UHGV virus genome: UHGV-0007115
DNA from: a virus
Direction: 5' to 3' (one strand)
Length of the DNA stretch: 43,204 bases
Below, piece by piece: positions 33,001-36,000 of this stretch. Position numbers: made by a program. Position 1 is the stretch's first letter; the number at the start of each line of letters is the position of its first letter.

Positions 33001-36000
33001 TGCTGAAGGAAAGAAATATTGAAACGGTTCTTGAATTTAGAGCTGAAAATCGATCAGCGAAAACTGCACAGTGATCAAACAGGCCGCTTTCGCGGCCTTG
33101 TTTTTAACGAATGCCACCGCCACCCGGGCGGGAATCCGCAGAACGCCCACCGCAGCGGGAGCCGTCAGCAGCAGTGTCGCTGTCGTGCTGACAACGACCG
33201 GCAAAGGCCTGAGTTGAAGCTACCAGAGACAACAAAACGAACAGTGCAGCAAATGCTTTTTTCATTGTGAAATTTCCATCTATAAGCCACCTCAATGTGG
33301 CGTCAATGAGTGTAGCACTGACTTTTGTTTCGTCCATAAAAAACTACTATGCAGGCTTTTTGGATTTGTACGAATAATCCCACGGATAAACATTTCTACT
33401 AAGTGGAGCTGTATTAGTTCGTTCATGAAATAATTTTGTGAAATTCAATACGGAATCCATCCAAACTTTTGCGTTAGCTTTGGTGTGTGCGGGCGGGTCC
33501 CAATAAGCTAGTAAGGCTGCATCTCTTATTTCATTGACTGCATATATGAGATATGCGTTACTGGTTGGTTTTGGCCTGTAATTTCCTTGTTCATCAATCA
33601 ATCCATATGACCACTCATCCCAACACTGTTCAGTACATGAGTATGAATATGATGCATATTCACCAATATTGACATGAACCTTTCTGAGATGGAAGCCTAA
33701 TACTTCGTCTGGTCTTTCAAAAAGAGTATCTTTTCCCAGATCAGGATGATGACCATGACGCCAGTGTTGTTTAAAAGCATCTTTTAGCGAAATCAGAAAG
33801 TCATCAGTTTTAAACTCACCAGTAGGTATAACCTTCCCGCTATACTCACTCAAAAACATCGAATTCCTCTTCCTTCATATGCGTTTCTAATGAGTTAAGC
33901 TGGCGGAAAGATATCTCTTTTGATTCTGCAGATGAGAGCTTTTTTATCCGCTTGATATTCTTTGTGATAGGAATAGACATTGTATGCACATCAGCGGATG
34001 CTCTTGGCTTTGTGCTGATAAAAATATGGCGCAATGCCGCATTTTCACTATTGAACGAGCCAATAGCTGATTTACGTGCTACAACCTTACCAGTAAAAAT
34101 ACGACTCTTGCTACGCTTTGCATGAGTTCCGCTTCTTACCGGACCTCTCATCACGAATCCAAGTTTTGTCATCTTTAATCTCCGGTAAGTTACAGGTATA
34201 AAATAAAAACAGGTTTACCTTTAAGGTAATAGTACGCTATTCACCCCCGGTCTGCAATCTGTACAGAATTATTTAAAGGCACATCCCTGTGCCGCCGCCC
34301 GTCAGAAGAATCCTGCTTTGTCGTTGATGTACTCCGCGTGGGTCTGGATATCACGCAGGCATTTGCTCACACCGACGATGTAGCAGAACATGGTGGTCAG
34401 CTCCGCCGCCGCGCCCGATACATCGTGCCCGTCTTCCTGTAACTGGTTCAGCAGATTCATCAGCAGTGAGTTCTCCGTCAGGCCGAGAACACCAGACGGA
34501 GAATGAATCAGGCTACGGTAGCCGGGCTTCAGCGGGGCGCTGTAGGTTTTGTTCTCTATCTTCATTGCCTGCATCACTGCTGATGCTGTGGCGTTGGCTA
34601 CCTGGTCGGCAACCATCTTTATGCGTTCTTCCTGCGGGAGCGAGTTTTTAATGTAACTTCCGGTGCGGCGGATCTGAGGAAGAACCTCACCTGTAACCCA
34701 TTCAAGAAATCTGAATGCTCTCGTTCCCTCAGTCATTGCCTCTTTGCAACGCAGAATAAGGATGTAGAGACCTGATTCTGAAACGATGGATAGTTCTTGT
34801 ATTCCACCAGGGGTCTGTATTGAATACAGCCCCTTTTTGTTCCAGCCTTTTTTATCAAGTTTTCTCGCTTGTGTAACATCAATATTCAAAGCATTGCACA
34901 CATCTTTGGTGACAAACCAAGGTTCTCCGTCAATCATGAACATACGGATCTGGCAGGATGACTCAAAGGAAAAGATGGAAGGTTTGGTATTCATGGCGAT
35001 CACCTTTGTAGTTAGGTTAATCACCACCGCTGAGACCAATCAGATGGTGGTGAACTGTGCAGAGTTGGTCTTACCGGCTACAAAGGAACCCGGCGCACCT
35101 TTCGGTGCCCCCACACAGCCCACCATAGAATAGGTGCGCTTTACACATAAAAAAACCGCTTATGCGGCATATGTGCCTCTGTAGTAATCCGGGAGACCAA
35201 TCCCGGCACTGGATTTTGCCAGTGCCCGATTACTATGGCACAAGAGGAGTGCGATGTAAATTTACCGCAAAGGTAATGATAAACGCGGAGAAATATTAAA
35301 ATCAACCGCATTTGGTTGATTGCGTTTAACGCTTGATCACCTGAAAGCAAGATATTACCTTTAAGGTAATGTTATTGTGAGGAAAAGCAATGGAAGTTTT
35401 CTGGATAGTTGTTGGTGTTGTTACGGTGATTATTTACGTTATCAACCAGAACAGGACTAAGGTCTCTGATCGCACAGTCGTTAATCATCGCAAAACGATA
35501 AAGACCGAAGATGGAGAAATAACGATTAATCGTACACAGGTGATAGACCACACCTCCACTCAGTTTCAAAAAACTGGAGGTAATGCGCCGGATATTTCTG
35601 TACATCCTGCTTATGATATATCGGTAATCCAGACATATTATAAACAGCAGGAGTCAGCAAAAGAGAGGGCGCTGATTCAGCCAAAGCCATTTACAGCAGA
35701 GCTTCCACCTGGAGTGTCAACGCGTCCGGCATATCATGACAGATTCCCAGGTGATGACATATCGTCTCAGTTACCTAAAAAAGCTCCTCAGGTAGTATCT
35801 GAGCCAGCAAGAATACCTTCTGTATCGCCATCACAAGAAGAATCAGCTAACAGAGTTTCAAGTGGTAGTAAGCAGTGTTTGCGATGCAGAATAAACCTTC
35901 CATATGAAAAATTCAGGAAATCGTCAAAAAATCCAGATGGATTGACTAAGTGGTGTGCAAGGTGTCTCGATGGCCCAAAGAATACACGCCATATGAAGTG

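What the first reader, a model, noticed from the sequence alone, without database searches (positions are those of the whole stretch)
33347..34172. YafO-like toxin with a Cys-rich insertion, partnered with an unrelated basic upstream protein
Two minus-strand genes overlap by 14 bp and have their own upstream palindrome (34215) and promoter region. The downstream 170-aa product aligns by eye to the YafO toxin family but carries an extra roughly 30-residue Cys/Trp/Tyr-rich segment. The upstream 108-aa protein is strongly basic and does not resemble the canonical YafN antitoxin. This could be a new toxin-antitoxin pairing or an abortive-infection style moron.
Basis: partly seen in the sequence, partly recalled or inferred. 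Interest (0 to 1): 0.65.

Follow-up and report, generated by a model that had tools for sequence, protein, structure and literature searches.

The report
Prophage YafO-type toxin–antitoxin cassette
A two-gene cassette in an E. coli prophage encodes a long-form YafO-family RNase-type toxin and an uncharacterised, mostly disordered upstream partner that is probably its antitoxin; it is an ordinary kind of system with an unstudied partner family.

Summary
Both minus-strand ORFs and their 14-bp overlap are real. The window is a phiV10-like (Uetakevirus) E. coli prophage.

**Toxin (170 aa).** It is a YafO-family toxin.
- On its own it scores below the Pfam threshold (19.7 bits against a cut-off of 25).
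- A 43-member family profile matches K-12 YafO at 95.9% probability (E 5e-9).
- RefSeq already names the identical protein a YafO-family toxin.
- The "insertion" is about 19 residues with only 2 Cys, and it is shared by a whole long-form clade.

**Partner (108 aa).** It is basic (pI 10.6) and has no Pfam match or source name.
- It shows no detectable similarity to YafN.
- It is predicted disordered apart from a conserved acidic C-terminal helix.
- It precedes the toxin with the same 14-bp overlap in every locus examined.
- It diverges much faster than the toxin.
- Other YafO-like toxins have different upstream partners with a similar C-terminal tail.

**Palindrome.** It is not private to the pair. 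It is one of 15 copies of a phage-wide motif, ATTACC-N5-GGTAAT, and phiV10 has 15 copies but no such pair.

Most likely this is a type II toxin–antitoxin pair in a variable accessory-gene slot. Toxicity, neutralisation and any anti-phage role are untested.

The parts
33347..33859 (-). Long-form YafO-family toxin gene (170 aa), with a predicted RelE/ParE (BECR) fold
33846..34172 (-). Upstream partner gene (108 aa): putative antitoxin. It has a basic, disordered body, a conserved N-terminal peptide (MTKLGFVMRG) and a conserved acidic C-terminal helix (residues 81-107).
   Evidence: ORF. phrog_5933 E 1.8e-73; no Pfam, NCBIfam or PADLOC family. pI 10.61 overall, 12.0 for residues 1-80 and 4.5 for 81-108. 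AF2 pLDDT 59.6 with a confident helix at 81-107. Termini conserved and middle variable. Followed by the 170-aa gene in every locus examined. All 40 relatives are unnamed and carry no Pfam domain.
33846..33859 (-). 14-bp overlap between the partner's stop codon and the toxin's start codon (probable translational coupling)
   Evidence: The gene coordinates give the same 14-bp overlap in L005-L012, L014 and L023-L025.
33574..33669 (-). Codons 64-95 of the toxin: the aromatic-rich segment between strands 58-63 and 103-109. It contains helix 77-83 (EQCWDEW). About 19 residues of it are absent from K-12 YafO.
   Evidence: Gap in hhalign. W80 nearly invariant across 43 relatives and W83 in at least 90% of the 16 closest. 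pLDDT block means of 97-98. Composition.
34214..34230 (.). 17-bp palindrome (TTTACCTTTAAGGTAAT on the + strand), 42 nt upstream of the partner's ATG. It is one copy of the phage-wide motif ATTACC-N5-GGTAAT and marks the edge of the exchangeable cargo.
   Evidence: 15 copies in the window against 1.47 expected. 15 in phiV10 against 1.09 expected. Half-sites conserved and centre variable upstream of homologous cassettes. Homology to TL-2011b and phiv142-3 ends just after it.
34278..34293 (-). GC-rich hairpin (GGCACA-GGGA-TGTGCC) just after the ant stop codon. It may be a weak terminator separating ant from the pair.
   Evidence: Predicted in both the MFE and the centroid fold. Not called by the terminator scan because the T run is weak. 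A similar hairpin is kept upstream of the cassette in L005, L006 and L008.
33344..34212 (-). The variable cargo segment (partner plus toxin), between backbone flanks shared with other Uetakeviruses
   Evidence: blastn breakpoints against TL-2011b, phiv142-3 and EC.W1-9. Those phages carry different genes here.

Best explanation
This is a prophage-borne type II toxin-antitoxin cassette. It sits in a variable accessory-gene ('moron') slot of a phiV10-like prophage, between the virion injection-protein genes and the ant gene.

**Toxin.** The downstream gene encodes a long-form member of the YafO family (PF13957), with a RelE/ParE-type fold. By homology it should stop growth by cleaving mRNA and blocking translation.

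**Partner.** The upstream gene is translationally coupled through a 14-bp overlap. It encodes a fast-evolving, basic, mostly disordered protein. Its conserved acidic, aromatic C-terminal helix most likely binds and neutralises the toxin. The conserved N-terminal peptide may contribute. This follows the pattern of other disordered antitoxins of RelE/ParE toxins.

**Regulation.** The partner has no predicted DNA-binding fold. The upstream palindrome is the phage's own genome-wide operator-like motif. Expression is therefore probably controlled by a phage regulator rather than by classical antitoxin autoregulation.

**Shown:** gene anatomy, family and fold of the toxin, conserved pairing, cassette mobility, and the genome-wide nature of the motif.

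**Inferred:** toxicity, neutralisation by the partner, which protein binds the motif, and the biological role (prophage maintenance or exclusion of other phages).
For: **Toxin family**
- Pfam match over nearly the whole YafO profile.
- 28 of 43 relatives hit PF13957, best E 6.8e-23.
- hhalign to K-12 YafO: probability 95.9%, E 5e-9 over 110 columns.
- Family-invariant or near-invariant residues (F29, G42, D44, H62, Y106, H125) fall in YafO's aligned FGRD, HIH, LVY and PEPH motifs, as read from the alignment.
- YafO is classed in the literature as a BECR-fold mRNase family with antitoxin-then-toxin gene order (PMC11980606).

**Pairing**
- The same two genes with the same 14-bp overlap occur in Uetakevirus-like, P22-like and AlpA-adjacent prophage contexts in Salmonella, Serratia, Citrobacter and metagenomes.
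- 69 of 5426 complete E. coli genomes carry the pair.
- The partner diverges much faster than the toxin: 50% against 80% identity, and 33% against 69%.
- Six more distant family members, plus TL-2011b and the second pair in strain 2/0 and EC.W1-9, also have a small upstream ORF of 55-175 aa overlapping or abutting the toxin gene.
- A profile of the window-type partner ranks 9 other partners at ranks 2-31 of 587 sequences (Mann-Whitney p 1.7e-7). Two are individually significant (E 2.4e-4 and 0.013).
- The partner model has a confident C-terminal helix at 81-107 and is otherwise disordered.

**Variable slot**
- Different cargo lies between the same flanks in TL-2011b, phiv142-3 and EC.W1-9.
Against: - No experiment exists, and no paper in the library mentions these proteins.
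- The single-sequence Pfam score is below the curated cut-off (19.7 against 25 bits). Pairwise BLAST to K-12 YafO is not significant.
- The partner model rests on only 6 sequences, so a small DNA-binding element could have been missed.
- Similarity of the partner tails is mostly not significant one protein at a time.
- If the motif is a repressor operator, the pair might be silent in the lysogen. That would fit poorly with a maintenance or defence role in lysogens.
- Even K-12 YafO's mode of cleavage (ribosome-dependent or not) is disputed (PMC8546651).
Confidence: 0.68

Rival explanations
1. The pair is specifically an anti-phage (abortive infection or superinfection exclusion) module. Infection by another phage releases the toxin, and the RNase shuts down translation before the invader can replicate. 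This concerns the role and would sit on top of the toxin-antitoxin mechanism.
For: The pair lies in a variable accessory slot of a prophage, with alternative cargo in related phages. One related prophage carries two diverged YafO-like pairs. RelE/ParE-type toxins are known as defence toxins (PMC11980606).
Against: No PADLOC model matches either protein. No recognised defence gene was noted next to the pair in the loci examined. No experimental report was found. A role in prophage maintenance fits the same data.
Confidence: 0.3
2. The pair is part of the phage's own programme rather than an addiction or defence module. The RNase is made when the prophage is induced or on infection. It is de-repressed through the phage-wide operator-like motif and remodels host or phage mRNA. 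The partner acts as a timer or inhibitor.
For: The upstream palindrome is the same motif that precedes most transcription units of the phage, including the cI/cro divergent region. The partner has no predicted DNA-binding domain. The pair follows the ant gene, which is preceded by C4 and isrK RNA genes.
Against: Most related phages lack the pair and carry other genes in the slot. It is therefore dispensable for the phage life cycle. Which protein binds the motif is unknown.
Confidence: 0.12
3. The palindrome at 34215 is the pair's private operator, bound by the partner or by the toxin-partner complex for classical autoregulation.
For: The half-sites ATTACC/GGTAAT are conserved about 55 nt upstream of homologous cassettes even where the surrounding DNA has diverged. 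In the AlpA-adjacent loci it is the only copy present.
Against: There are 15 copies across the window and 15 in phiV10, which has no YafO-like pair. The same palindrome precedes unrelated cargo in TL-2011b and phiv142-3. The partner is predicted to be disordered.
Confidence: 0.08
4. The 170-aa protein is an inactive or decaying relic, and the upstream ORF has an unrelated function or none.
For: Truncated toxin variants exist (102-136 aa). The single-sequence Pfam score is below threshold.
Against: Full-length 170-aa orthologues at 66-82% identity occur in several genera with 36 invariant positions. All family-invariant residues are present. The model is very confident. The upstream ORF stays open at 100-112 aa with conserved termini.
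Confidence: 0.05

Closest known systems
YafN-YafO of E. coli K-12 (dinB operon; toxin family Pfam PF13957)
   Same: The toxin is homologous at profile level (probability 95.9%, E 5e-9) and shares the G-[KR]-D, H-x-H, L-x-Y and A/P-H motifs. Gene order is antitoxin then toxin, in a small two-gene operon.
   Different: The toxin is 170 aa against 132 aa. It has an extra helical segment of about 19 residues between the central strands, plus N- and C-terminal extensions. The partner shows no detectable similarity to YafN and no YafN-like folded domain is predicted. The pair is prophage-borne, not in the SOS dinB operon.
HigB2-HigA2 of Vibrio cholerae (PDB 5mje) and other RelE/HigB/YafQ/YoeB toxins
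   Different: Sequence identity is only 6-17%. HigBA has the reverse gene order (PMC11980606). HigA2 has a folded DNA-binding domain (my own knowledge), which is not predicted here.
PaaR2-PaaA2-ParE2 of E. coli O157:H7 prophages (PDB 5czf)
   Different: Its toxin belongs to the ParE branch, which acts on gyrase rather than mRNA. No dedicated regulator gene lies next to the pair here. There is no sequence similarity between the antitoxins.
YafO-like pairs in other Uetakevirus prophages (TL-2011b gp44/gp45; second pair in E. coli strain 2/0 and phage EC.W1-9)
   Same: The same long-form toxin clade (33% and 46% identity). Same or neighbouring accessory slot. A small upstream partner with a similar C-terminal tail.
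   Different: The partners are 59, 139 and 175 aa and are unrelated outside the tail. All are equally uncharacterised.

Membership tests
YafO toxin family (Pfam PF13957) | Significant match of the protein itself to the curated family profile | tested here: inconclusive
   E 9.5e-4 and 19.7 bits, below the gathering score of 25, although profile positions 7-100 of 101 are covered. No NCBIfam model matches.
YafO toxin family (Pfam PF13957) | Homology to the founding member, E. coli K-12 YafO, at profile level | tested here: met
   43-sequence family profile against K-12 YafO: probability 95.9%, E 5.1e-9, 110 columns. 28 of 43 relatives hit PF13957, best E 6.8e-23. Pairwise BLAST alone is not significant.
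YafO toxin family (Pfam PF13957) | RelE/ParE (BECR) fold | tested here: met
YafO toxin family (Pfam PF13957) | mRNA cleavage and growth inhibition | not testable with these tools
   Needs expression and RNA cleavage assays.
YafNO system | YafN-type (Phd/YefM-like) antitoxin upstream | tested here: not met
   No BLASTP alignment to YafN. YafN ranks 163 of 587 against the partner profile. The tail-only profile gives E 3.9.
Type II toxin-antitoxin system | Two small, co-oriented, overlapping genes kept together across different genomic contexts | tested here: met
   14-bp overlap. The same pair is found in at least three kinds of prophage context and several genera.
Type II toxin-antitoxin system | The antitoxin protein binds and neutralises the toxin | not testable with these tools
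Only indirect support is available: a conserved C-terminal helix and a tail motif shared among partners.
Type II toxin-antitoxin system | Autoregulation through a DNA-binding domain of the antitoxin at an operator of its own | tested here: not met
   No folded domain is predicted in the partner, though the alignment is shallow. The upstream palindrome is a phage-wide motif that is also present in phiV10, which lacks the pair. Not every type II system has this feature.
Catalogued anti-phage defence systems (PADLOC-DB 2.0) | Match of either protein to a defence-system model | tested here: not met
   No hits at E up to 1.

The most novel reading that the evidence does not exclude
The cassette is a toxin-antitoxin module that does not regulate itself. 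Its disordered antitoxin belongs to a modular family that grafts one portable C-terminal neutralising helix onto unrelated bodies. Its expression is controlled by a genome-wide network of 17-bp operator-like sites (ATTACC-N5-GGTAAT). These sites head nearly every transcription unit of Uetakevirus phages and also act as the breakpoints at which accessory cargo is exchanged.
Probability: 0.2. Interest if true: 0.55.

Novelty: new variant of a known kind. Interest (0 to 1): 0.33.

Why it matters
- **YafO itself is poorly understood.** No YafO structure is solved, and its dependence on the ribosome is disputed (PMC8546651). A well-folding, phage-borne long-form clade with a defined extra helix gives a second entry point for structural and mechanistic work.
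- **The partner family is unannotated.** It is one of the many unrecognised partners of YafO toxins already counted in E. coli (13 partner clusters, 8% known; PMC10790755). The shared C-terminal tail could allow such antitoxins to be recognised and annotated.
- **Clinical relevance.** About 1.3% of complete E. coli genomes carry this exact pair, including clinical isolates such as a urinary-tract isolate. If it excludes other phages, that would matter for phage therapy and for prophage stability.
- **Limit.** None of this would overturn current understanding of toxin-antitoxin systems.

Tried and rejected
- **AlphaFold-database fold search.** The library was not available.
- **Viral structure library (BFVD).** Nothing significant.
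- **PDB sequence searches with both family profiles.** No relatives.
- **NCBIfam and PADLOC.** No hits.
- **Species-representative genome scan.** The broad alignments had no usable conserved stretch. The narrower alignment found only two loci.
- **Idea that the partner's tail resembles YafN's C-terminus.** I noticed this by eye. It is not supported: tail profile E 3.9, rank 7 of 578, and full profile rank 163 of 587. I dropped it.
- **Idea of special nucleotide-level conservation in the partner's first codons.** Rejected, because synonymous differences are present.
- **RNA structure in the ant-to-partner spacer.** Not more stable than shuffled sequence (z -0.51).
- **The epsilon15 genome paper (PMC2698709).** Not held. 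I therefore could not check whether the 17-bp motif has already been described.
- **Literature search by protein accessions.** Nothing found.

Full report
**1. What is in the sequence**

The window holds a phiV10/epsilon15-like (Uetakevirus) prophage of E. coli.
- The flanks of the finding are 96-99% identical to phages phiv142-3, TL-2011b, EC.W1-9 and others.
- An identical 1-kb stretch lies in a prophage next to guaA in E. coli strain 2/0.

Both minus-strand ORFs are present: 33347-33859 (170 aa) and 33846-34172 (108 aa). They overlap by 14 bp.
- Each has a Shine-Dalgarno sequence at a normal distance, read.
- The pair sits between a small membrane-protein gene and a Bro-N/Ant anti-repressor gene (34302-35039).

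**2. The downstream protein is a YafO-family toxin**

Sequence evidence:
- Alone, it matches Pfam YafO_toxin across almost the whole profile. The score is below the curated threshold (E 9.5e-4, 19.7 bits against 25).
- Pairwise BLAST to K-12 YafO is not significant.
- An exhaustive profile search found a small family: 58 representatives at E up to 1e-3, mostly 160-200 aa.
- Of 43 aligned members, 28 match PF13957 on their own, best E 6.8e-23.
- The family profile matches K-12 YafO with 95.9% probability and E 5e-9 over 110 columns.
- Positions invariant or nearly invariant in the family include F29, G42, D44, P50, H62, W80, S100, Y106 and H125.
- In the alignment these fall opposite YafO's FGRD, HIH, LVY and PEPH motifs.

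Structural evidence:
- The AlphaFold model built on this alignment is very confident (pLDDT 95.5, pTM 0.90).
- This agrees with the literature, which places YafO among BECR-fold mRNase toxins with antitoxin-then-toxin gene order (PMC11980606).

RefSeq already calls the identical protein (WP_000479990.1) a 'type II toxin-antitoxin system YafO family toxin'.

**3. The 'insertion'**

- Relative to K-12 YafO the extra segment is about 19 residues, roughly positions 70-88.
- It lies between strands 58-63 and 103-109 and contains a confident short helix at 77-83.
- Residues 64-102 hold 2 Cys, 2 Trp and 5 Tyr. C75 is not conserved even among close relatives.
- W80 is nearly invariant across the whole long-form clade.
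- The segment is therefore a clade feature, aromatic-rich rather than Cys-rich, with no metal-binding pattern.
- The shortest family members (133-135 aa) lack it.

**4. The upstream protein**

- It is basic: pI 10.6 overall, 12.0 for residues 1-80 and 4.5 for residues 81-108.
- It belongs to phrog_5933, of unknown function, and matches nothing in Pfam, NCBIfam, PADLOC or the PDB.
- All 40 relatives found with a profile search are unnamed and have no Pfam domain.
- It shows no detectable similarity to YafN.
- Homologues conserve the first ten residues (MTKLGFVMRG) and the last 25 or so (ISFRMLNSLEDRMKEEEFDAFE). The middle varies in both sequence and length.
- The structure prediction used only 6 sequences. 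It gives a disordered chain with one confident helix at 81-107.

**5. Evidence that the two genes form one module**

- Every homologue of either gene that I located has the other gene next to it, with the same 14-bp overlap.
  - The contexts include Bro-N/Ant and pRha neighbours, a P22-like immunity region, and loci with an AlpA gene upstream.
  - The hosts are Salmonella, Serratia and Citrobacter, plus metagenomes.
- The partner diverges much faster than the toxin: 50% against 80% identity, and 33% against 69%.
- More distant family members also have a small upstream ORF of 55-175 aa that overlaps or abuts the toxin gene.
- These partners differ in their bodies but share a C-terminal motif of about 32 residues.
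  - A profile made only from window-type partners ranks nine other partners at positions 2-31 of 587 sequences (Mann-Whitney p 1.7e-7).
  - Two of the nine are individually significant.
  - The reciprocal profile ranks the window's partner third of 578, which is not significant on its own.
- I read this as moderate support for a shared toxin-binding tail.

**6. The palindrome and the 'own promoter'**

- The perfect palindrome at 34215-34229 exists.
- It is one of 15 copies (up to 2 mismatches) of ATTACC-N5-GGTAAT in the window, against 1.5 expected.
- phiV10 also has 15 copies against 1.1 expected, and phiV10 has no YafO-like gene.
- In phiV10, 11 of the 15 copies lie outside annotated genes. 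Several follow annotated terminators directly.
- In the window the copies lie:
  - before int;
  - on both sides of the CI-like gene, including the cI/cro divergent region;
  - before the terminase and portal modules;
  - before the tailspike.
- Two weaker look-alike sites follow the copy in the cI/cro region; I read these by eye.
- Homology with TL-2011b and phiv142-3 runs through the palindrome and stops immediately after it. Unrelated cargo follows.
- The same half-sites also precede the homologous cassette in other prophages.
- The consensus scan finds no sigma-70-like promoter between ant and the pair.
- My reading is that the motif is a binding site for a regulator encoded by the phage backbone, and that it marks the edge of exchangeable cargo. 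It is not an operator private to the pair. Which protein binds it is unknown.

**7. Most likely mechanism and role**

- The pair is most likely a type II toxin-antitoxin module.
- The toxin would be an mRNA-cleaving RelE-fold enzyme.
- The partner would neutralise it with its C-terminal helix, possibly helped by the N-terminal peptide.
- Synthesis of the two proteins would be coupled by the overlap.
- Transcription probably depends on the phage's regulatory network.
- The slot holds different genes in related phages, so the pair is an accessory gene set.
- It could stabilise the prophage or exclude other phages. Nothing here distinguishes these roles, and PADLOC has no matching model.

**8. 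Novelty**

- The toxin is already annotated by RefSeq.
- A published E. coli survey counted 6 YafO clusters with 13 partner clusters, only 8% of them known (PMC10790755).
- No paper in the library mentions these proteins.
- The case is a new variant of a known kind. It combines a divergent long-form YafO clade with an uncharacterised, apparently domain-less antitoxin family, and probably phage-level control.
- Interest is modest.

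Noticed in passing
window 135, 6486, 6548, 7260, 7645, 9608, 9670, 13551, 13569, 16763, 28795, 34214, 35261, 35354, 36473 (17 bp each); L022 (phiV10), 15 sites: A 17-bp palindrome, ATTACC-N5-GGTAAT, is about tenfold over-represented in this prophage and in phiV10. It lies mostly in intergenic regions just after terminators and before the next gene, including the cI/cro divergent region. It looks like a genome-wide operator set. I could not check whether the phiV10 or epsilon15 genome papers already describe it.
   Followed up: partly
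window 35043-35130 (-) and 35149-35225 (-): Rfam finds a C4 antisense RNA (78.6 bits) and an isrK Hfq-binding RNA (74.7 bits) just upstream of the ant gene. The anti-repressor is therefore probably under P1 immI-style antisense control.
   Followed up: no
window 35390-36118 (+): A 242-aa protein has a hydrophobic N-terminal stretch (seen by eye) and a Cys-rich C-terminal part with weak Stc1 and endonuclease VII / HNH-like matches. It occupies the slot where strain 2/0 and phage EC.W1-9 carry a second YafO-like toxin with its own 175- or 139-aa partner.
   Followed up: partly
window 36140-36415 (-): A 91-aa ORF is a stand-alone copy of the C-terminal domain of the Ant protein at 34302-35039 (42% identity over 74 residues, E 1e-15).
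   Followed up: partly
window 32223-33074 (+) and 33104-33337 (-): A low-GC (35-42%) 283-aa ORF has a signal-peptide-like N-terminus (seen by eye) and matches phrog_6118. Next to it is a small ORF matching a phrog annotated 'membrane associated protein'. These are further accessory genes beside the cassette, separated by a bidirectional terminator-like hairpin at 33081-33098.
   Followed up: no
L003 6083-7106 (E. coli strain 2/0) and L004 2592-3507 (phage EC.W1-9): One prophage can carry two diverged YafO-like toxins (46% identity), each with a different upstream partner. Whether the partners are specific to their own toxins is not known.
   Followed up: partly
L015 2905-3288 (Phytobacter massiliensis); proteins P0016, P0018-P0020: Several relatives of the toxin are truncated to 102-136 aa, and in L015 the upstream partner remains intact. 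This may reflect decay of toxin genes.
   Followed up: no
L006, L007, L023 and L025, downstream of the cassette: A Rap1a-family gene (PF18602), a family I know as a type VI secretion immunity protein, lies next to the cassette and the large virion or injection-protein genes in several related prophages.
   Followed up: no
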